Shown here piece by piece: positions 19,653 to 33,375 of a DNA stretch of 40,642 nucleotides. How positions within the stretch are numbered: position 1 is the first letter of the stretch; each line of letters begins with the position of its first letter. Source of the stretch: Octopus sinensis (lineage: Eukaryota); assembly GCF_006345805.1 (NCBI RefSeq), contig NW_021827585.1, positions 1-40,642 of the forward strand, in the 5' to 3' direction. Under the pieces are notes generated by a model. It worked only from the letters and a program-made list of their open reading frames with translations. It was not told where the DNA came from and made no database searches. Both the position numbers and the translations under genes were made by a program.

Positions 19653-20493
19653 GCACGTAACACATACATATATACGGTGAGCGTGAGTGCGTGTATGTTT
19701 CTATACATGTAATAAATACGTAAATATGTACATATATATGTTTATATATATGTATGTACATACACACACGCACACACGCACACATACATATCAAAGATGC
19801 CTTATTAAAGATTTATTTAGCTTACACATGTTTCGTATAGACTGGCCCAATGCACCCACACCATATAGCAGCATGCATATTTAATCGATTCTTCAATTGA
19901 TCAGTTAATATGCTAGAATTACAGGCCATAATTCTTGACAGCTTTAACGAAGAAAGAAGAAGAAAAATCTCTGAAGCAGATAAAAATCTAATCTAAAACT
20001 TCAAGTGCAAAATGCGATGCTGAAACTATAGCAAGAAAAAGTCCCTACATGGTAAAAATAGAAGAAACTGAACAGAAGAAGCACAGACAAAATAAATTGC
20101 CACTACTGTTTGAGAAATATGGGACTGGCAGTAGAAACTGGAGGGTTCTTAATTGCGACACAAAATCAAAGCATCCTCCCGGGGACAACCTAAATCACGT
20201 AATGGAGCAGAATACAATAAGAAACTGTAGAATATGTGATGAAAAAGAAACAATAAATTCTATTGTTTCTAGCGGCCCAGCCTTGGACAAAAAGGAATGT
20301 ATTCACAGATAGATAGATATATAAATAAATAAATAAATATATATATATAGAGAGAGAGATCAATAAATGGTGGGGTTGTGTTGACCGCACGTGGAGAAAT
20401 GATAAGCAAGGAAAAATTGTAAAAATGCAGAATGCTCGATTGAAAGAAAATTTTAATGAAATGAGAAAATGAAAAAATATATAAATATATATT

Positions 20494-20535
20494 TATTCAA
20501 ACCGGTTTTCGTCATAGTTTGACTTATCAAGAATA
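20494..20535 (-). ncRNA. Minimal type I hammerhead ribozyme (identical copy on the opposite arm)
   Basis: Exact reverse complement of 20673-20714. Confidence 0.7.
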
Positions 20536-20672
20536 GTTAGGTGAAAAGGTTTTTTAAGAATGAGAAAGGGGAAAAAAAGTTGCATTGTTTTTTGCATTTA
20601 TTATTATTCTTTTGCAAAAAACAATGCAACTTTTTTCCCCTTTCTCATTTTTAAAAAACCTTTTCACCTAAC

Positions 20673-20714
20673 TATTCTTGATAAGTCAAACTATGACGAA
20701 AACCGGTTTGAATA
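20673..20714 (+). ncRNA. Minimal type I hammerhead ribozyme (U3-A8 variant)
   Basis: tattc-TTGATAA-gtca(aacta)tgac-GAAA-accggt-TT-gaata. Stems I (5 bp) and II (4 bp) and a palindromic stem III all pair; triplet UUU. Confidence 0.7.
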
Positions 20715-20803
20715 AATATATATTGATATATTTTTTTCATTTTCTCATTTCATTAAAATTTTCTTTCAACCGAGCATTCTGCATTTTTACAATTTTTCCT
20801 TGC

Positions 20804-20900
<97 letters not shown>

Positions 20901-20917
20901 AACATACATATACATAA

Positions 20918-21148
20918 GGCGGCGAGCTGGCAGAAACGTTCGCACGTCGGGCGAAATGCGTAGCCGTATTTCGTCTGTCGTTACGTTGTGAGTTCAAATT
21001 CCGCCGAGGTCGACTTTGCCATTCATAATTTCGAGGTCGATAAATTAAGTACCAGTTACGCACTGGGGTCGATGTAATCGACTTAATCCCTTTGTGTGTC
21101 CTTGTTTGTCCTCTCTGTGTTTAGCCCTTTGTGGGTAGTAAAGAAATA
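20918..21148 (+). mobile_element. SINE family B copy
   Basis: Full-length match to the 10535 copy. Confidence 0.9.
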
Positions 21149-21563
21149 TATATTCATAGACAAGATAAATTTGGTCTTACGTACAGTGGAATTTGCGCCA
21201 GAACATTGGAATGCCAACAAAGAATTTAGGCGTAATTATAACGAATGAAACGTTTCAGAAAATGAAAAAGTAACTGTATTCTGTGATCTGTCAATACATA
21301 CAGACAGGGAGCTCAAGACTAACAGACCAGATATTGTTATCAAGAACTATCAAGTAAATGAAGTATTTTATTTGGTATATCAGTCCAATCAGATGACAAT
21401 ATGCCTCTAAAAGATCTGGAATTATATATGACCTGAATTTGGAATCTGAAAACCAAGAGAATTCTTAAAACGATAGGTGATTTGGATGTGGTTTATAAAC
21501 ACACAAATGTGTAGCCTAAACACTAGGACATAAGAATATATATATATATATATAGATATATAT

Positions 21564-22573
21564 GAAAAACAAGTCAAAAATAGAAAATGCTAAAATAATT
21601 TTATAGTGAACATTTCAGTACCGGTTTCGGTCATTTTGAGACCTTTTCAAACTGTAACGATTAAATAATTAAATTTAGAAAATTAGAAGAAAGTTTTTTT
21701 TAAAGGAATATTTCTATAGTAGTGTTCAGATATAAGTGGCATTCTGCCTTTCTCTGACTCCCTTGTTTGCACTTGTGTGTTCGAGGTCGTTGTGAGTTCT
21801 TGGTAGGTAGTAGAGGAAGAGGGCTGTGAGGAAAGGGGGTGGGAGAATCTGGGAGTGCCCTGATGGTCGTATTTTGAATGGTCAGTGGCGGCTGGCAGTC
21901 TCAGTTCAATTCAGGAGAAATTTATATTGACAGCTTGTTTATAGAATTAGCGTAGGTGTTATACTAAAAACACATTAGTGACAAAGTTAAGGGGTAGGGG
22001 GGTGGAGAAGTAGAAGAAGAAGAAGAAGAAGAAGAAGAAGAGAAGAGGAGAAGGAGAAGATGACGATGATGGTGATGGTGGTGATGATTATGACGACGAT
22101 GATGATGAAATGATGATGAATGAAGAAGAGAAAAGAAGAAGGAGGAGAAGGAGAAGATGGTGGTGATGATGGTGGTGATGATGATGACGACGATGATGAT
22201 GATAATGATGATGATGAAAGAAGAGGAAGAAGAAGAAGAAGAAAAAAACAGAAGGGAGAATATGAATGGGTGTAAATATAGCTATGAAGGGGCTGATTAG
22301 TAATGGATTCTATGGAGTGTAATATTGTGTGTGTATATATTTTTTCTTTTATTCTAAAGTTGAGGTATATTAATTGTTTGTCGTAGACCCGTTAAGAAGT
22401 GGCTTGTATTTTGTATAAAGAGATTTTCTTTACTTATTCGTTGTCTCGAGGTTGTATCGTCCCTAAATTGGTAGAGGGGGAAAATTCTGAAGTTTGGTGT
22501 TTTTTTGTTGGCGCAAGTATCTATGTGTTGGCTAAAAGCTATTTTTCTGTTTTGGGGAATTTTTATCTGGATC

Positions 22574-22578
<5 letters not shown>
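21564..22578 (-). mobile_element. 3' portion of a Penelope-like element (GIY-YIG C-terminus, 3' region, hammerhead-like motif)
   Basis: Minus strand from 22578 reads QIKIPQNRKIAFSQHIDTCANKKTPNFRIFPLYQF...RISKENLFIQ, then after a 1-nt frameshift KYKPLLN. This resembles the E..FI..YKP.LN end of PLE GIY-YIG endonucleases. Both ends abut (TA)n. Confidence 0.75.
21616..21654 (-). ncRNA. Hammerhead-like motif (U3-A8 variant, imperfect stem I register)
   Basis: cag-t-TTGAAAA-ggtc(tcaaaat)gacc-GAAA-ccgg-TA-ctg. Confidence 0.5.
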
Positions 22579-22628
<50 letters not shown>

Positions 22629-22893
22629 ATTTCATATAATTTTCGTAGTATATATATATTTATATATATTTTCGTATATATTTTCAGTATTATATATATA
22701 TATTATATATATATATATATAATACTGAAATTGAACTACTATGCACAGTACATCTAAGTTGCGAAATTTTAAAATAGCAAAAAAAAAAAAAGAGACACTA
22801 AAGCAAACGGGAACGTGTACCCAGGGCACAAAGAGCTGCACCCGGTAGTGCTGTGAAAAGCACGCAATATAATATGACAATTGAATAATAAAT

Positions 22894-22933
<40 letters not shown>

Positions 22934-23874
22934 TAATAATATAATAACAACAATAACAATGACAATGACAATGATGATGATAATGATGATGATGATGATG
23001 ATGATGATGATAATAATAATATCTGCAGCAGCAGCGTCGGTTATGATTCCTTACATAAGTATGTTAAATGAGCTTCTGACACAGACCGACCCCGATTGAT
23101 ATTCTGTGGGAAAGACCGATCTAGTCGTTTGTGACATTAATGTTTCTCATTCTGCATTAATTGCGCAAGGATAGCAAAACCGTCTGGAAATATCGAAAAA
23201 TCTGGATCGTTAATGGGGAGATAACTATATGGAAAGGGGGTCAAAAACAAAACTGAGACTAGTGACAAACGAATAACTAGAAATAAAGAAATATTAACGG
23301 AAAATAAAGCAGAGTAGTAACCAAGTGTATATATATATATATATATATATATTCTATATATATATATATATAATATATATATTATATATATATATATATA
23401 TATAATCGTCACCATCATCCTCTTCGTCTCCATCATCATCATTATCATCATTATCGTCATCACCCCTCACCATCATCATCACATCACTCATCATCATCAT
23501 CATCATCAACATCATCATCATCACCATCAATCCCTATCTCATCATCACCATCATCATCATCATCATCATCACATCATCATCATCATCATCATCATCATCT
23601 TCCTTCTCCGCCTCATTATCATCACCAGCACAACCAATCACTTCTACCATTATCATCATCAATATCGTCATCACCAGCGTCGGCGTCGAAATGGTTATAA
23701 ACATCACCACCATCACCATCATCATCATTTTTATGACTTTATCGACGGCAATGACGACGCTGGCGCTGACCAATTAACACTAATTCCATCAGCGTCATCG
23801 AAAACCAGAAAAATTAAATCAAGGGTTTCCTAATCAGTCATTAATCGTTAACACATTATCAAGGGTAGTGATAT

Positions 23875-23930
<56 letters not shown>

Positions 23931-23933
23931 GTG

Positions 23934-24093
23934 ATAGGAGTGGCTGTGTAGTAAGTAGCTAGCTTACCAACCACATGGTTCCGAGTTCAGTCCCACTGAG
24001 TGGCACCTTGGGCAAGTGTCTTGTACTATAGCCTCGGGCCGACCAAAGCCTTGTGAGTGGATTTGGTAGACAGAAACTGAAAGAAGCCCGTCG

Positions 24094-24139
<46 letters not shown>

Positions 24140-24396
24140 GTGTGTGTGTGTGTGTGTGTGTTTGTGCGCGTGTATATATGTTGTGTATCTGTGTTTGTCC
24201 CCACCCCAACATCACTTGAAAACCGATGCTAGTGTATTTACGTCCCCGTTACTTAGCGGTTCGGCAAAAGAGACCGATAGAATAAGTACTAGGCTTAAAA
24301 AGAATAAGTCCTGGGGTCGATTTGCTCGATTAAAGGCGGTGCTCCAGCGTGGCCATAGTCAAACGACTAAAACAAGTATAAGAGTAAACGAGTATG
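23934..24396 (+). mobile_element. Full-length SINE family C with internal (TG)n
   Basis: tRNA-like head (tggctgtgtagtaag...gagttcagtccc), CORE-like accttgggcaagt, central TA/TG microsatellite and (aagagt)-type tail. Confidence 0.92.
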
Positions 24397-24816
24397 CTCA
24401 GAAACGGGAAAAATAATGAAATAAGTCTGTCTGCATGTGCGTTCCTGTATTCATGTTTACCGGTGTAAACCTATGTATCAAGCTGTATCACTTCATGTTT
24501 AAAACGTAACTTTATCATTGATTGATAAATATGTATCGATCAACTAATTTATTATTCAGACTCTACAAGATGTGTTAAGATCAATAAGATCGATCTGATC
24601 GCCGGAACGGTTGTAATCCATCGACCGGTGCGAATAAACGTGACAATTTTCGTAAAATGTAATATTTTCACTCAATTCACATGATTATCACCAGCTTCTC
24701 GCCGCCATTTAACATGGAAAAAATTATAAAAAGAAAAAAGAAAAAGAAAAGAAAAGAAAAGGAAAAGACAAAAAACAGAAACGATGACCTAAGCAATATT
24801 ATACCGACTATATAAT

Positions 24817-24933
24817 ATATATATATGTGTGTGTGTGTGTATCTGTGTTTGTCCCCACACCAACATCACTTGAAAACCGATGCTAGTGTATTTACGTCCC
24901 CATTACTTAGCGGTTCGGCAAAAGAGACCGATA
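24817..24933 (+). repeat. Internal piece of the neighbouring family C SINE, flanked by an 11-bp direct repeat
   Basis: Near-identical to ~24183-24281; gactatataat at 24806-24816 and 24934-24944. Confidence 0.8.
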
Positions 24934-25046
24934 GACTATATAATGCATAATGCATACATATATACACATCCACGCGTGTGCGCAGTACACACACGCACAC
25001 ACACATACACATATGTATATTGATCGCTAGCTAGCTAGCTAGCTAC

Positions 25047-25130
<84 letters not shown>

Positions 25131-25146
25131 CATATATATAACATAA

Positions 25147-25377
25147 GGCGGCGAGCTGCCAGAAACGTTCGCACGCCGGGCGAAATGCGTAGCTATATTT
25201 CGTCTGCCGTTACGTTCTGAGTTCAAATTCCGCCGAGGTCGACTTTGCCTTTCATCCTTTCGGGGTCGATAAATAAAGTACCAGTTATGCAGTAGGGTCC
25301 ATGTAATCGACTTAATTCTTTTATGTATCCTTGTTTGTCTCCTCTATGTTTAGCCCCTTGTGGGAAATAAAGAAATA
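25147..25377 (+). mobile_element. SINE family B copy preceded by (GATA)n
   Basis: Full-length match; GATA run at ~25048-25130. Confidence 0.9.
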
Positions 25378-26110
25378 AGAAACATACATATATACATGTA
25401 TGCATACAGGCATACATACATACATATATAGTAAATATATAGCTAATCTATGTTCTTGAGGAGGACAAAATACATTTTGTTTCGTCCAATAAATTTATTT
25501 GTGTCTGAGTGTCTGTATGTGTATCTACGTCTTGTTTTCTCCAATCAAATAATAATATTAAGAATAATGAATATTATCGTTAATGTTTTTTTTTTAATTC
25601 TCGTTTTACAACAACAATGACAAAAATGGTAAATAATGTGACAAGAATTACAACTTAGCATAAAACAATGGCAATTATTACAATATTAATAACAAATAGA
25701 ACAAGAACATCGAATTGGAAGCAAATAATGAAAACACCAATAAATAAATGAATGTAAAATAAACATTTAAATCCTAGAATTAAATAACAATAAATCTAAA
25801 CAAGAAAACAAAATTATAAATAACATTGAATTTATAAAAGAATCCACCGTATAACGAATGAAAATGGAACCGAAAACATCGAACAACGACAACAGCCGTA
25901 ATAACATGAATAATAGCTAAAATCTACGACAGGAATAAAAAAATAACAATAATTACAATAATAGCAATGAAAGAAAAATGGCTGAACGACCGTCGAAAAA
26001 TTTATTCCCGGTAATTTAGGGGTCAGAAACGAACAAAACTATTAATGTCCAACTGAAAAGACGTTAGAATTGCTTGAAGAAACCAAAGTTTTAATTATCC
26101 GACCGCCTTC

Positions 26111-26169
<59 letters not shown>

Positions 26170-26285
26170 TCTCTCTGTCTAGGATGCGCAAGCCCTTTTT
26201 AAAAATATATATATTTTATATGACTCGTTCGTTCTCCTTTTCTATCTTTAATAAACCCCTCTCTATCTCTATCTCTCTTTCACTG

Positions 26286-26316
<31 letters not shown>

Positions 26317-26439
26317 GTATAAATCTAGCTATCAATCAATATATCTCTCTCCCTCTCCCTCTCTCTCTCTTCTCTCTCTCTCTCTTTCTAGATATATATA
26401 TTATATATATATATATATATTATATATATATATATATAT

Positions 26440-26496
<57 letters not shown>

Positions 26497-27197
26497 CACA
26501 GGATGACCAAGGGGCACACGGGAAACACATGAAAGACTTGGGCGCCCTTAAAGTGGTGCTCCAGTATGGCCGCAGTTAAATTACTGAAACAAGTAAAACA
26601 ATAAAAGAATACAAGAATACAAGAATATACACTTATATCTCTCACTTTCACATTCAATGTCACTTATAGCTCTCTTTTTCTCAGCATGTCTGCTTACTTC
26701 TCTCTGCCTATCTGTTTCTCTCCTCTTTCTTGCTCTCCCTGTGTGTCTCTCTCTGTCTCTCTGTCTCTCTCTCTCTCAATCTTTCCTTTTGACGTTGTTT
26801 TACTCTCCATTTGTCGCTAAACAATGAGTCTGGCCTTCAAATTCTTCACAATTTATGGACCGCGGTCGTTTCCAAATTACTTGGGCGAATCGGGAATGGG
26901 TGTGTGAAACTTGTGTGTATTTTATTTGCATACTTGAGTGTGGGTATGCGGGTGCTTGAGCATACGTGGATGCGTTTCTGAATGTGACTGCGCTGCTGTG
27001 GATGAATGTATATATATTGCATATACATATCCAAGCATGTGTGTGCGCGCTTGTGTGAGAGAGTAGTATGTGGGTTGAAATATTTAATATGCAAGGATTA
27101 TGCATATACACCATACATATATACACTTACACACACATGAATGTATGCTGTATGCATGTGTAGGTGAGTATAAATATACATATATATACACAAACAT

Positions 27198-27231
<34 letters not shown>

Positions 27232-27249
27232 GAAAGAGAGAGATAAAAA

Positions 27250-27261
27250 GATAGATAGATT

Positions 27262-27323
<62 letters not shown>

Positions 27324-27338
27324 GAGATAGATAGATAG

Positions 27339-27399
<61 letters not shown>

Positions 27400-27423
27400 T
27401 ATTGATAGATAGATAGATAGATA
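27250..27423. repeat. (GATA)n microsatellite
   Basis: Long tetranucleotide run. Confidence 0.95.
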
Positions 27424-28239
27424 AACAGACGGGTGCATACATGCTTATAGCCGTACAGACACGTACAATTGATCCTAGTAAACCGAACCTTCTCTAATAA
27501 TGAAACCAAACAGAGACCTGGATGCGCGACTTTCTAGAAATAGCAACTAAATCTAACATTAATATCATTCTAAAATGTGGAAGGCACATTAGAAAACAAA
27601 TATAGTTACAGACAATCATACAAAGATATATTCATCGAGAAAATAACTTTGTATGAAATAACACACACGCGCACACAATTATATCCACGATCCACCAGAA
27701 AAACAAGATGGTCGCCGTTGGAATAGCACTGATAATAGTTCGGTTCATTATGAATAGAACCGATTCAAAACATGTACTTTTATCAAAGGGGCGCATAATT
27801 ATGTCTTAATTAGTGTATGTATTACAGCGGTGTTTGAACAATAGAATTATTTCGTGTGTAATTATGGTCTAATTAATGCCTCGAAACAAGTATGAATGTG
27901 AATGTGCAAATTTGATATTTATTCTGTATTTACTTAGTGCAGGATTTTGAGAAGCTGGTTAGCCTCTCTGACATGGAAATGAAGTATTAAACGCAGTTTG
28001 AACATATGTGTTCCTGCATGGTTATAGCCTTAGGGTTGAAACGTTTAAAAGAATAAAGAAATGCATATATAATTATATTTTTATATATACTTGGCACTCG
28101 GTTCGATCAACGGAACAGACTGCTCGTGAAATTAGTGACTGAGATCTCCCCAGACGCGTTTCTCAGGAAGATGCACCTTGAAGAGATTTACTCGAATGTC
28201 TCGACTCTATTACTTATCTCTTTCAAAGTTCATCGGTCT

Positions 28240-28388
28240 CTTTGGCCGAATCGCTAAGTTACGCAGACCTACACAAATCAACACTGGTCGTCAAGCTTAT
28301 GTAGGGATGTAGAGGCAGAAACACAAGACGCACATTTACGTACAATGATTTTCTTTCCGTTTACCTAATTCACTCAAAGATTTTGGTC
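28240..28388 (-). mobile_element. Diverged SINE family C fragment
   Basis: gccgaatcgctaagttacg...gtcaagc...attcactcaaagattttggtc. Confidence 0.6.
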
Positions 28389-28474
28389 TGTTGGCTCGGG
28401 TTAGACAAGTCGTCACGGAATCGATCCTACGACAGTTGACTTGCTCCGAATTCTTACAGGTAATATATATATAT

Positions 28475-28516
<42 letters not shown>

Positions 28517-28832
28517 CAAAAACGGTAAGATAACGAAAGAAAGAAAGAGACCTCAAAATTATGTAATAGAGGAAATTTATCTAAAAAATAATATGTTACA
28601 TTTACTCAATAGTCAAGATAAAACTCTGAGTTTCAGATGCCGAAGTGGAAATCCACAACACCATCTCTTCGGTTATCTGGCCATCTGAAAAACGCTATGA
28701 AAAAATACCGTTATATAAAGGGAAATTACTGTGTTATAATTCTGCTCGCGAACCCACGTGCGTACTTATACTTATACTTCGGCATCTGAAACTCAGAGTT
28801 TTATCTTGACTATTGAGTAAATGTAACATATT

Positions 28833-28880
<48 letters not shown>

Positions 28881-29305
28881 ATATAATATATATATATATT
28901 ACCTGTAAGAATTTGGAGCAAGTCAACTGTATAGGCAAATGGTTTCATGATAAAGTGCAAACATTTCATTCTATGACGGACCAAGATGATGAAAAGAGAT
29001 AATCATAGGATCAAGAGAACGAAATAATGTCAATTGTGATTTGGTAACGACATAATAAATTCTCTGGTTCTGGTATTTATAAAAAAAAACTGTGACTATC
29101 ACAGACTAGGGTCGTTGATGTATGTACGAAAACTCCAGACGAATCGAATAGATTGTACAGACCACCATGCTTCAGGAGGTAACATCTCTAGTGATAGGGC
29201 AAAGAAAAACAAAGTACCGAGTGTACACTTGAAAGTGTTTGATAGAAAGTAGTCCATCACGTCGTAGGATCGATTCCGTGACGACTTGTCTAGCCCGAGC
29301 CAACA
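28389..29305. repeat. Nested inverted-repeat structure
   Basis: 28389-28433/29261-29305 (45 bp, 1 mismatch); 28432-28463/28899-28930 (32 bp, 1 mismatch) plus TA tracts; 28587-28646/28776-28835 (60 bp, perfect). Confidence 0.9.
28616..28678 (-). ncRNA. Degenerate hammerhead-like motif in a Penelope-like fragment (28514-28835)
   Basis: agataa-CCGAAGA-gatg...catc-t-GAAA-ctcagag-TT-ttatct. Stem I is 6 bp perfect; the core has U4>C and one extra nt. Confidence 0.4.
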
Positions 29306-29366
29306 TACAAAACGAGCTTAAGTGATTATATATGAGTGGGTGTGTGCGTATATATATATATATATA

Positions 29367-29688
29367 AGTAAATAAATGGAGTTGAATGCAGATGTTATTA
29401 AGATTCTTTTACTTTCGACATATGTTTCGAAGACAACATTGGTTTTATTCCAAAGGAACAAACGGTGTAAAATGCAATCTTCTCATCAGGAAAGAAAGAG
29501 AGCCTATCTCAACAACAAGACATTATAACAATTATAATGACTGCATAACTGATAAACAGAACGTTATTAAGTATTTTTAAAAAAACCGTTAGTAGATTCG
29601 ACGTCAAAGGCATATATGTATATGTAACTAAAGAAAAAAAGTTGTAACAGCTGTAAACAAATGTAAGAAGCATCTATTCTCGCACAAC
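29367..29688 (-). mobile_element. Probable Penelope-like terminal-repeat fragment
   Basis: Unique-looking island carrying the hammerhead, bounded by TA-rich microsatellites. Family assignment is inferred. Confidence 0.55.
29412..29494 (-). ncRNA. Canonical-core type I hammerhead ribozyme
   Basis: ctttc-CTGATGA-gaaga(44-nt loop)tcttc-GAAA-catatg-TC-gaaag. Full core, GUC triplet, 5-bp stems I and II, palindromic stem III ACAUAUGU. Predicted cut between 29417 and 29416. Confidence 0.82.
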
Positions 29689-30977
29689 TATCTATCTATC
29701 AGTCTATCTATGTATAATATATATATAAATATATATATAAGTTTATATATGTATATAAGTGTATATATATGTATATATATTGTATATGTATGTACATACA
29801 TACGTAAGTACATACATACGTAAGAACAGACACACACACTCACGCACACATATATATTGATACACACACACAAACACACACAGACACACACATATATATA
29901 TATAAACACATCTGTTTGTGTAATATACATGTATGCATGTAGGTATGCTTATATTATAATGGAAAGCGTGAGATACATTATCGGAAAAATGTTCCCCCTT
30001 CTTTATAATTCCATTTTGTTTTTTTTCTTTTACTACGGAATAAGTGAAGACGTGGGAAAAGGAATGGCGGGGAGGGACACGAACAGAATCTAAATCAGTA
30101 AGCCATTATCCTATCGGCACTTGTTCCTCGTGTCACTTTTGTTTCATGGTTATTTTTCTAACCTAATGTATTTCTTTAATCAAATCTTCTCCCTCATCTC
30201 TTCTGTTGTCTCTCCCCCCTCCCTCTTAGACAAACACACCATCACACACACACACAGTATAACAACCCTTAATTCCCACAACATACGCTATATTCGAATG
30301 TCTGTCTTCCAAGTTTGGTTTTCATTTCAAAATAACAACGAAACTGTTGACATTCGGATTAATGTTATTTTTATATAATACTTTTTCTAAGACTGTTTTA
30401 TTTCCACAGTTATCATATATATTACACGCATAAAATAAATAACTGTACGTGTGTACATATATGTATGCATATGTATGTGTGCTTATATACATAAGTATCG
30501 TTTCGAAGAGATTCGTATCCAATTCAAATGTATAATGTAAGAATCTATTTAGGCCAAGTGTATGCACTTTATCGTGACATTAGTGCTTGTCAGGGGGACC
30601 CAGAATTACGGTAGTCTCTCACCCAAGAGGTTTTGTGATAAGTAGTCGGTTCTTCAATCAAGACAGCACCGAACAAAAGATTACCATGCAACTCTTTGAA
30701 GATATGGTTGGGGCAGAGAAATGAGGAAATAGAAGTGTGGTTAAATATATACAATTGACTCGGGTTTCAATCAGTTTTTTAGCGGCGGTCAGCAGAAGAA
30801 TGGTTGAAGGCTTTATATGGTGGGCAGGCTGGGGAATACACATTCACGCATATATACACACATATACACCATACCCACACGCTTAGATGCACCGCCACCA
30901 ATTACACGTACATGCTCATGCACCCAAGCCATATGCGCACGCACAGTGAGCTTAGGTATGTATACATGTGTGTGGTA

Positions 30978-32822: not shown

Positions 32823-33375
32823 AAGACGGCTAGCTGGCGGAAACGTTAGCACGCCAGGTGAAATGCTTAGCGGTATTTCGTTTGCCGCTACGTTGAGTTC
32901 AAATTCCGCCGAGGTCGACTTTGTCTTTCATCCTTTCGGGGTCGATTAAATAAGTACCAGTTACGCACTAGGGTCGATATAATCGACTTAATCCGTTTGT
33001 CTGTCCTTGTTTGTCCTCTTTGTGTTTAGCCCCATGTGGGTAGTAAAGAAATAGGTATTTCATCTGTCTTTACGTTCTGAGTTCAAATTCCGCCGAGGTC
33101 GACTTTGTCTTTCATCCTTTCGGGGTCGATTAAATATGTACCAGTTACGCACTGGGGTCGATATAATCGACTTAATCCGTTTGTCTGTCCTTATTTGTCC
33201 TCTTTGTGTTTAGCCCCTTGTGGGTAGTAAAGAAATAGGTATTTCTTCCCCCGAAGTCGACTTTGCCTTTCATCTTTTCGGGGTCGATAAATTAAGTACC
33301 AGTTGCGTATAGGGGTCGATCTAATCGACTGGCTCTTCCCCCAAAATTTCGAGCCTTCTGCCTAGAATAGAAAAG
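32823..33375 (+). mobile_element. Tandem multimeric SINE family B insertion
   Basis: One head and three gtcgactttg..tttcatcctttcggggtcgat cores. A single 16-bp TSD aatttcgct(t/g)atcttt at 32807-32822 and 33376-33391. Confidence 0.9.

What the first reader, a model, noticed from the sequence alone, without database searches (positions are those of the whole stretch)
20359..29688. Four different hammerhead-bearing Penelope-like fragments within ~9 kb, all in (TA)n tracts
Seen: hammerhead topologies at 20494-20535/20673-20714, 21616-21654, 28616-28678 and 29412-29494. Their stems are unrelated in sequence but pair in each case, and each lies in an island bounded by TA-rich microsatellite. One island also encodes a GIY-YIG-like C-terminus. 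Established: Penelope-like elements carry minimal type I hammerheads with palindromic stem III, and Naiad-clade elements favour (AT)n targets. Inference: several distinct PLE or retrozyme-like families colonise TA repeats here, forming a dense, probably unannotated set of ribozyme motifs.
Basis: partly seen in the sequence, partly recalled or inferred. Interest (0 to 1): 0.75.

Follow-up and report, generated by a model that had tools for sequence, protein, structure and literature searches.

The report
Four Penelope retroelement tails with hammerheads
The four islands are cut-off tail ends of four abundant jumping-gene families that sit in TA repeats and carry a predicted self-cutting RNA motif, a known arrangement, except that one family made over 2,200 copies with a changed core letter that likely weakens or silences the cut.

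Summary
The motifs are real: 3 of 5 pass a strict hammerhead descriptor (0 in 200 shuffles); the other two need one relaxation each. Each island is a 5'-truncated copy of a different repeat family (1,238-2,682 first-look candidates) that continues upstream, elsewhere in the genome, into an RT plus C-terminal GIY-YIG ORF. F1 and F2 are related Neptune-type, F3 and F4 Hydra-type Penelope-like elements; not Naiads, not retrozymes. 3' ends abut (TA)n. The cluster is about 38-fold denser than a genome sample, yet 1-4 such clusters are expected by chance. The unusual part is F3: its core has C for U4 in 2,219 exact matches against 91 with U (71 in a CpG-decay control), while a sister family keeps U4 (98 of 100 listed). 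The same base is predicted to refold the RNA and bury the GAA. Cleavage is untested. The scan noted similar clusters and U4C Penelope families on other DNA before (unchecked notes).

The parts
20357..20596 (-). Family F1 (Neptune-type PLE), 5'-truncated copy, left arm of an inverted pair; includes the 47-nt optional tail (20357-20404)
   Evidence: 98.8% to the 3' end of the long F1 copy L121; tail seen in other copies
20494..20535 (-). F1 type I hammerhead motif, U3-A8 core, palindromic helix III; predicted cut after 20499
20596..20804 (+). Family F1, 5'-truncated copy, right arm, ending at the short (tail-less) end point in (TA)n
   Evidence: 97.6% to L121; arms 98-99% complementary
20673..20714 (+). 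F1 hammerhead motif, U3-A8 core; predicted cut after 20709
   Evidence: core equal to the majority in 28 of 30 copies
21561..22579 (-). Family F2 (Neptune-type PLE), 5'-truncated 1-kb copy between two (TA)n tracts: endonuclease C-terminus, simple-repeat 3' UTR, pLTR end
   Evidence: 94.9% to L127 over 1,069 nt
22357..22569 (-). [quoted passage not shown]
21616..21654 (-). F2 hammerhead motif, U3-A8 core; this copy has one extra T before position 3
   Evidence: 28 of 30 copies lack the extra T
28514..28771 (-). Family F3 (Hydra-type PLE), 5'-truncated pLTR copy ending in (TA)n
   Evidence: 96.6% to the pLTR-ORF-pLTR copy L132
28616..28678 (-). F3 hammerhead-like motif with family-wide U4C core (base 28671), G10.1-U11.1 or bulged U before G12, helices 6/4/4 bp; predicted cut site after 28622
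28776..28838 (+). Short inverted F3 piece (3' half of the hammerhead only), ending in TA-rich repeat
29365..29616 (-). Family F4 (divergent Hydra-type PLE), 5'-truncated pLTR copy ending in (TA)8
   Evidence: 93.7% to L137
29412..29494 (-). F4 hammerhead motif, canonical CUGAUGA core, 44-nt loop II, palindromic helix III; predicted cut after 29417
   Evidence: fold z -2.0; core equal to the majority in 26 of 30 copies
20805..20900 (.). (TA)n/(GATA)n tract right of island 1
21536..21560 (.). (TA)n tract at the 3' end of island 2
22579..22721 (.). (TA)n tract at the 5' junction of island 2
28463..28513 (.). (TA)n tract at the 3' end of island 3
28839..28901 (.). (TAT)n/(TA)n tract right of island 3
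29349..29364 (.). (TA)8 tract at the 3' end of island 4

Best explanation
The four islands are 5'-truncated copies of four separate, protein-coding Penelope-like retrotransposon families whose 3' pseudo-LTR carries a predicted type I hammerhead, likely inserted one by one into nearby (TA)n tracts by each family's own endonuclease and reverse transcriptase. Shown: high copy number, sharp shared 3' ends at (TA)n, variable 5' ends, inverted partners, optional tails, RT+GIY-YIG ORFs upstream in longer copies. Inferred from PMC11167929 and PMC8557442: the GIY-YIG domain nicks AT-rich DNA, reverse transcription starts at one of two internal sites (with or without tail) and usually stops early, sometimes leaving an inverted second piece (islands 1 and 3). 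Inferred from PMC4209133: the hammerheads would cut as dimers through the palindromic helix III in the parent transcript; the lone truncated copies here are probably inert. F1, F2 and F4 parents likely have working, slow ribozymes. F3 descends from a U4 ancestor and spread after U4C; that base probably weakens the core and is predicted to favour a rival hairpin, so F3's cut is likely weak or absent (about 55%). The pile-up is most likely the upper tail of many families aiming at a TA-rich stretch.
For: First-look candidates 1,238 (F1), 2,682 (F2), 2,180 (F3), 2,073 (F4); best 40 scored each, 93-98% identical. Distance from family end to (TA)4+: F2 29 of 29 within 3 nt; F3 27 of 29 within 12 nt; F1 11 of 28 at the short end and 15 of 28 at 44-55 nt (tail); F4 13 of 29 within 17 nt, 12 of 29 at 138-184 nt, 4 of 29 none; background 5.4% within 20 nt. 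Upstream inverted partner within 1.5 kb in 11/28, 7/29, 9/29, 6/29. Pfam RVT_1 above cut-off in F1 and F2 ORFs; GIY-YIG E 3.6e-4, 5.2e-4, 0.042 in F1, F2, F3, all under the cut-off. Clade motifs. Direct pLTR-ORF-pLTR units 3.1 kb apart in F3 (L132, L136) and F4 (L137); both pLTRs of L136 carry C4. U4 in the sister family, in intermediates (12 of 30 U4 copies read have the sister's C11.1) and in all 34 rows of File S2 of PMC8557442. Median fold probabilities with 25/12-nt flanks: C4 copies (n=21) helix I 0.01, helix II 0.01, GAA paired upstream 0.96; U4 copies with the same U11.1 (n=10) 0.84, 1.00, 0.01.
Against: No ORF-bearing copy that I read is intact (4 read in full). F3 and F4 RT pieces get no Pfam RT hit and F4 no GIY-YIG hit; F4 rests on 38% identity to F3 and motifs. 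No upstream pLTR was seen for F1 in 3 long loci, and F2's 7 long loci showed only inverted partners. Clades are by motif, no tree. Folding predictions are weak witnesses: F1, with an accepted core, also shows helix I at 0.00-0.18, F2 loses both helices with 60/40-nt flanks, the U4 sister drops to 0.05/0.27 there, and F3 forms both helices (0.56/0.97) when trimmed. A U4C viroid ribozyme stays active enough in vivo (PMC3088659 passage). No target-site duplication or empty site was shown (one search found no second copy of the region).
Confidence: 0.9

Rival explanations
1. F3's U4C motif is a tolerated, still useful ribozyme variant (slower, or switched on only in the dimer or with a protein), not a silenced one.
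For: All three helices are kept, and helix I is one pair longer than in the sister (G.A to A-U). U or G.U at 11.1 and the same helix III occur in described Hydra hammerheads (File S2 of PMC8557442). Trimmed F3 folds correctly. U4C viroid variant remains infectious (PMC3088659). Unchecked scan notes report U4C in other Penelope families.
Against: U4C 'considerably decreases activity in vitro' (same passage); with natural flanks the GAA is predicted buried at 0.91-0.96; minimal PLE hammerheads are already weak (PMC4209133).
Confidence: 0.4
2. The site is a true insertion hotspot or functional ribozyme cluster rather than the tail of random TA targeting.
For: 4 loci in 9.3 kb against 9 loci in 792 kb; Poisson P 4.8e-6, or 1.7e-4 after scaling for 12 TA tracts against a mean of 5.0. 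Unchecked notes describe other four-motif clusters in this genome.
Against: Over about 290,000 windows 1.4 such clusters are expected, about 4 after TA scaling (7 of 80 sampled stretches have 12 or more tracts). Flanks of 175 family-centred loci (560 kb) hold only 8 loci with another family's motif, about the genome rate. One window copy carries an insertion next to the core and another piece lacks the 5' core.
Confidence: 0.12
3. The islands are non-coding retrozymes or Naiad elements.
For: Islands 1, 3 and 4 are non-coding in the window; Naiads prefer (TA)n; one F4 pair lies 1,038 nt apart.
Against: All four families extend into RT plus C-terminal GIY-YIG ORFs; upstream tandem copies in 0/28, 1/29, 0/29, 1/29 loci, whereas retrozymes are 150-450-bp tandem repeats (PMC7229834); Naiads have N-terminal endonuclease and lack canonical hammerheads.
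Confidence: 0.03
4. The motifs are chance matches in AT-rich repeat DNA.
For: Two need a relaxed descriptor; Rfam finds none; single-strand fold z-scores are -0.2 to -2.0.
Against: 0 of 200 shuffles; 0 in 5 shuffles of 792 kb against 10 real hits; all four lie 52-142 nt from the 3' end of PLE ORF-bearing families; homologous F1 and F2 have different helix I and II sequences that both pair.
Confidence: 0.01

Closest known systems
Hydra clade of C-terminal-endonuclease Penelope-like elements, especially Hydra-1_Obim (PMC8557442; section 11, passages, supplement parts seen)
   Same: F3: RWK, DKT, CxCX5C linker, CxxC and CxH in the endonuclease, about 3 kb, (TA)n targets, hammerhead with ACTC-N-GAGT helix III and U before GAA; by eye the F3 protein follows Hydra-1_Obim along its length, and the sister family shares its CTGAAGAGATG.
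   Different: F3 and F4 hammerhead sequences are not in that supplement (0 hits for four motif strings); F3 has C4 where all 26 Hydra rows of File S2 have U4 (their descriptor asked for it); F4 has RWL, no CxCX5C found, a simple-repeat linker, 44-nt loop II and a roughly 150-nt tail.
Neptune clade of Penelope-like elements (PMC8557442 passages)
   Same: F1 and F2: DKG, RT, CX4CxxC linker, C-terminal GIY-YIG with CCHH; GxKF in F1; microsatellite bias; inverted 5'-truncated partners; 30-47-nt tails.
   Different: No tree was built, so Nematis is not formally excluded; these families were not found described.
Minimal type I hammerheads of metazoan PLE pseudo-LTRs (PMC4209133; parts 1-2 of 4 read)
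   Same: U3-A8 covariant core (F1, F2), short helix I, palindromic helix III, pairs on opposite strands 100-700 bp apart, mostly single truncated copies.
   Different: U4C is not among the variants in the parts read; helix III here is 3-4 bp as in their fly, rotifer and shrimp variants.
PAc, Poseidon element of the green anole (PMC11167929; passages)
   Same: AT-rich nicking, two internal start sites giving copies with and without tail, pLTR hammerhead.
   Different: Different clade; its hammerhead cleaves in vitro and catalytic mutants still insert in vitro, whereas F3 would be a natural in-genome case.
Non-LTR retrozymes of animals (PMC7229834 passages; bioRxiv 10.64898/2026.07.22.740005 part 1 of 5)
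   Same: Type I hammerhead, related to PLE pLTRs.
   Different: Retrozymes are non-coding short tandem arrays; these are dispersed ends of coding elements.

Membership tests
EN+ Penelope-like element | Single ORF with RT and GIY-YIG endonuclease upstream of the 3' repeat | tested here: met
   F1, F2: RVT_1 above cut-off, GIY-YIG just under it; F3: GIY-YIG E 0.042 and motifs; F4: motifs and 38% to F3. All copies read are broken.
EN+ Penelope-like element | Direct pseudo-LTRs from partial tandem insertion | tested here: inconclusive
   Met for F3 (L132, L136) and F4 (L137); not seen in 3 long F1 loci or 7 long F2 loci; 1 of 29 short F2 loci has an upstream tandem.
EN+ Penelope-like element | 5' truncation with adjacent inverted copy | tested here: met
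   islands 1 and 3 themselves
EN+ Penelope-like element | Optional 3' tail on a fraction of copies | tested here: met
   F1 47 nt, F2 about 30 nt (11 of the 26 rows visible), F4 about 150 nt; for F3 a second, shorter end point is seen
EN+ Penelope-like element | Hammerhead motif in the pLTR | tested here: met
   F3 with a variant core
Neptune clade (F1, F2) | DKG motif, CX2-5CxxC linker, CCHH in a C-terminal GIY-YIG | tested here: met
   (GxKF seen in F1; the F2 copy read lacks that part)
Neptune clade (F1, F2) | RT phylogeny with reference Neptune elements | not tested
   No reference sequences were held as data; Nematis shares the linker
Hydra clade (F3) | RWK, DKT, CxCX5C linker, no CCHH, CxxC and CxH near the end, (TA)n targets | tested here: met
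   RMRWK (L132, L133), SDKT (L133), CSCRNKKLC (L131), CGLC, CPH; 27 of 29 ends at (TA)n
Hydra clade (F4) | RWK, DKT, CxCX5C linker | tested here: inconclusive
   RIRWL and SDKT present, CxCX5C not found in the one long copy read; 38% to F3 RT while F3 is 23% to F2
Naiad clade | N-terminal GIY-YIG, DKA motif, no canonical hammerhead | tested here: not met
   Endonuclease follows the RT in all four; DKG or DKT; hammerheads present
Non-LTR retrozyme | Non-coding 150-450-bp tandem repeats with a hammerhead per unit | tested here: not met
   No such array at the islands; tandem partners rare; families are coding
Type I hammerhead ribozyme | Core C3-G8 or U3-A8 with U4, G5, A6, A9, G12, A13, A14, A15.1-U16.1, H17 (F1, F2 family, F4) | tested here: met
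   the window's F2 copy has one extra T
Type I hammerhead ribozyme | U4 in the core (F3) | tested here: not met
   C4 in 2,219 exact matches, U4 in 91; filed as hammerhead-like variant
Type I hammerhead ribozyme | Compensatory changes in the helices | tested here: inconclusive
   0 within families; between homologous F1 and F2 the helices differ and still pair
Type I hammerhead ribozyme | Self-cleavage at H17 | not testable with these tools
   needs in vitro transcription or raw RNA reads

The most novel reading that the evidence does not exclude
One base change switched off the F3 hammerhead twice over (core U4C plus a rival hairpin that buries the GAA), and the element then out-copied its U4 sister about threefold: a natural, in-genome demonstration that Penelope-like elements do not need, and may be slowed by, their ribozyme, with a ready-made series of sister, intermediate, mutant and CpG-revertant copies to test it.
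Probability: 0.35. Interest if true: 0.62.

Novelty: new variant of a known kind. Interest (0 to 1): 0.38.

Why it matters
F1, F2 and F4 are only new members of described clades, in a described arrangement. The value lies in F3. What PLE hammerheads do is called unclear in PMC8557442, and catalytic mutants still insert in vitro in PMC11167929. F3 supplies a polarised natural series (U4 sister, U4 intermediates, C4 burst, sporadic U4 revertants) in one genome, so three short transcriptions decide whether a lineage spread with a dead or weak ribozyme. Secondary: a fixed-step sample puts such motifs at roughly 1 per 88 kb (9 loci in 792 kb; about 30,000 in the genome, wide error, narrow descriptor), Rfam did not call the ones tested here, and descriptors that demand CUGA miss the F3 family.

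Tried and rejected
A fifth candidate at 28090-28240(-) (GAAA plus palindrome) has no 5' core and matches decayed SINE-like repeats at 75-85%: rejected. Rfam: no hammerhead call. Within-family covariation: none. Search for a second copy or empty site of the region with 25430-26100: only the window itself and a 97-nt weak hit. Sequencing runs: no RNA holder listed, so nothing on expression; contigs of four runs cannot show ends or levels and were used only to see that C4 is the main form under three organism labels (U4 3-9% of summed contig depth, not a copy number). Single-strand folding does not single out the motifs. tblastn of the four ORFs over the whole window found only the F2 endonuclease end (the 21835-21918 hit is pLTR sequence in the query). 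The idea that U before G12 in F3 is a second defect was dropped after File S2 showed it is common in Hydra hammerheads. Paper searches that found no description of these families or of U4C in a PLE; supplements of PMC4209133 and PMC11167929 were not opened and bioRxiv supplements are closed, so a listing there is not excluded. No tree, no protein database search and no structure job were run. The Pfam scan of the window's short endonuclease piece was not completed.

Full report
1. Observation. The window is microsatellite-rich animal DNA, a whole 40.6-kb contig of a 2.7-Gb assembly. A strict type I hammerhead descriptor finds three motifs in the whole window, at 20494-20535(-), 20673-20714(+) and 29412-29494(-), and none in 200 local dinucleotide shuffles. 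The other two claimed motifs appear when one extra base or U4C is allowed (relaxation chosen after seeing them; mean 0.02 in 100 cruder shuffles). Rfam calls none. The claimed GIY-YIG C-terminus lies at 22357-22569(-).

2. Each island is a repeat family. DNA searches of the own genome gave 1,238, 2,682, 2,180 and 2,073 first-look candidates for islands 1-4 (F1-F4); only the best 40 of each were scored, at 93-98% identity. In the 28-29 non-window copies fetched per family the 3' end is sharp and the 5' end variable (part of that output was cut). The first (TA)4+ lies within 3 nt of the end in 29 of 29 F2 copies, within 12 nt in 27 of 29 F3 copies, at the short end in 11 and after a 44-55-nt tail in 15 of 28 F1 copies, and within 17 nt in 13 and at 138-184 nt in 12 of 29 F4 copies; background is 5.4% within 20 nt. 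An inverted partner lies upstream within 1.5 kb in 11/28, 7/29, 9/29 and 6/29 loci. Island 1 is such a pair, one arm with the 47-nt tail and one without; island 3 has a short inverted piece. These are the insertion marks described for Penelope-like elements (PMC8557442 passages; PMC11167929 passages).

3. The families are coding. Twenty 9.9-kb stretches chosen for long shared upstream sequence show elements of 3.0-3.9 kb. F1 and F2 carry RVT_1 above Pfam's cut-off and GIY-YIG just under it, DKG, a CX4CxxC linker and CCHH, with the endonuclease after the RT; their RTs are 60% identical. That is the Neptune pattern; without a tree Nematis is not excluded. F3 has RMRWK, SDKT, CxCX5C, CxxC and CxH, the diagnostic set of the Hydra clade (section 11 of PMC8557442), and by eye follows Hydra-1_Obim. 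F4 has RIRWL and SDKT and is 38% identical to F3 but lacks a readable linker motif; F3 against F2 is 23%. F3 and F4 occur as pLTR-ORF-pLTR units about 3.1 kb apart. All four long copies read in full are frameshifted or stopped. Naiads are excluded by domain order and because they lack canonical hammerheads; retrozymes because these are not short tandem arrays.

4. The hammerheads. They lie 52-142 nt from the 3' ends. F1 and F2 use the U3-A8 covariant core already reported for PLEs (PMC4209133). The window's F2 copy has one extra T; 28 of 30 copies do not. F4 is canonical with a long loop II. Palindromic helix III pairs between two molecules in the co-fold of all four, fitting the dimer model of PMC4209133. 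No compensatory change occurs within a family (0 of 1,500 cells), as expected for young copies; between homologous F1 and F2 the helices differ and still pair.

5. F3. Exact 26-mer counts over the genome: C4 2,219, U4 91, and 71 for the opposite-strand CpG-decay control. So most U4 copies are explained by decay of the new CpG, and the rest are older intermediates: of 30 of the 91 read, 12 have the sister's C at 11.1, 14 T, 1 A, 3 unreadable. A sister family found in the random sample has 825 candidates and 778 pattern matches, 98 of the first 100 with U4 (pattern not identical in stringency to the F3 one). All 34 rows of File S2 of PMC8557442 have U4, though their descriptor required it. C4 is therefore derived, and the burst came after it; both pLTRs of the ORF-bearing L136 have it, and it is the main form in contigs under three organism labels. 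With 25/12-nt natural flanks, C4 copies (21 of 30 usable) are predicted to lose helices I and II (0.01, 0.01) and to pair the GAA upstream (0.96), while U4 copies with the same U11.1 (n=10) keep them (0.84, 1.00). Against reading this as silence: trimmed F3 folds correctly; F1, F2 and the sister also lose helices in some contexts; F3's helix I is a pair longer than the sister's; a U4C viroid ribozyme is much slower in vitro yet sufficient in vivo (PMC3088659 passage); unchecked scan notes report U4C in other PLE families. I put weak-or-absent cleavage at about 55%.

6. Density. Eighty stretches at fixed steps on 25 large contigs (792 kb) hold 4 strict and 10 relaxed motifs at 9 loci, against 0-1 and 0 in five shuffles. 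Four loci in 9.3 kb is about 38-fold higher; Poisson P is 4.8e-6, or 1.7e-4 after scaling for 12 TA tracts against a mean of 5.0, so 1.4 to about 4 such clusters are expected in the genome (7 of 80 stretches are as TA-rich). Flanks of 175 family-centred loci (560 kb) hold 8 loci with another family's motif, near the genome rate. The estimate rests on nine events and a narrow descriptor.

7. Mechanism. Shown: families, ORFs, ends, flanks, motif states. Inferred from the cited papers: nicking of AT-rich DNA by the GIY-YIG domain, internal priming at two sites, early termination and inversion. Inferred: dimeric self-cleavage in parent RNAs of F1, F2, F4, and weak or no cleavage in F3. Untested: any cleavage, transcription, current activity.

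8. Novelty. The arrangement is known; the families were not found in print (searches; supplement search), nor U4C in a PLE. Papers seen: PMC4209133 parts 1-2 of 4; PMC8557442 passages, section 11 and supplement excerpts; PMC11167929, PMC3088659 and PMC7229834 passages; bioRxiv 10.64898/2026.07.22.740005 part 1 of 5; all others as search listings only. Hammerhead numbering and the SINE and LINE labels in the side notes are from my own knowledge. The scan had noted similar clusters and U4C families on other DNA; a sequence look-up with island 3 returned nothing. Verdict: real, mostly ordinary; three new members and one testable variant; interest 0.38.

Noticed in passing
window 20905-21150, 25141-25377 and 32894-33245: Very high-copy short repeat (133 hits in the 792-kb sample), SINE-like by recall; the third place is a 184-nt tandem pair.
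   Followed up: partly
window 28382-28463 and 28899-29312: Two arms of an inverted repeat (94-97% over 52 and 32 nt) face inwards around island 3; the right arm is split by about 330 nt that has no match in the loci held.
   Followed up: partly
window 19949-20309 and 21248-21420: Old LINE-like coding remnants at about 70-73% to other loci; both also match L167, so possibly one element split by island 1 and the SINE.
   Followed up: partly
window 29617-29700: About 75 nt between the 5' end of island 4 and the next TA run, with no match in the loci held.
   Followed up: partly
L033, L046, L047, L059, L241, L254, L280, L166, L169, L176, L190, L196, L215, L216: At least ten further hammerhead families with palindromic helix III, many with long loop II and several as inverted or direct pairs; L190 and L115 are further C4 cores.
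   Followed up: no
L137 ORF linker; window 22006-22253: F4 carries an expanded trinucleotide repeat inside the ORF between RT and endonuclease, and F2 a long (GAA)n/(GAT)n run in its 3' UTR that is copied with the element.
   Followed up: no
F3 and sister loci, e.g. L233, L236, L248, L251, L262; C1 list: Inversion junctions often fall within a few tens of bases upstream of the hammerhead, giving head-to-head motif pairs 28-130 nt apart.
   Followed up: no
L002/L003, L139, L140: F4 copies whose shared sequence stops about 650-780 nt upstream and a 1,038-nt direct pair may mark a shorter non-autonomous subfamily.
   Followed up: no
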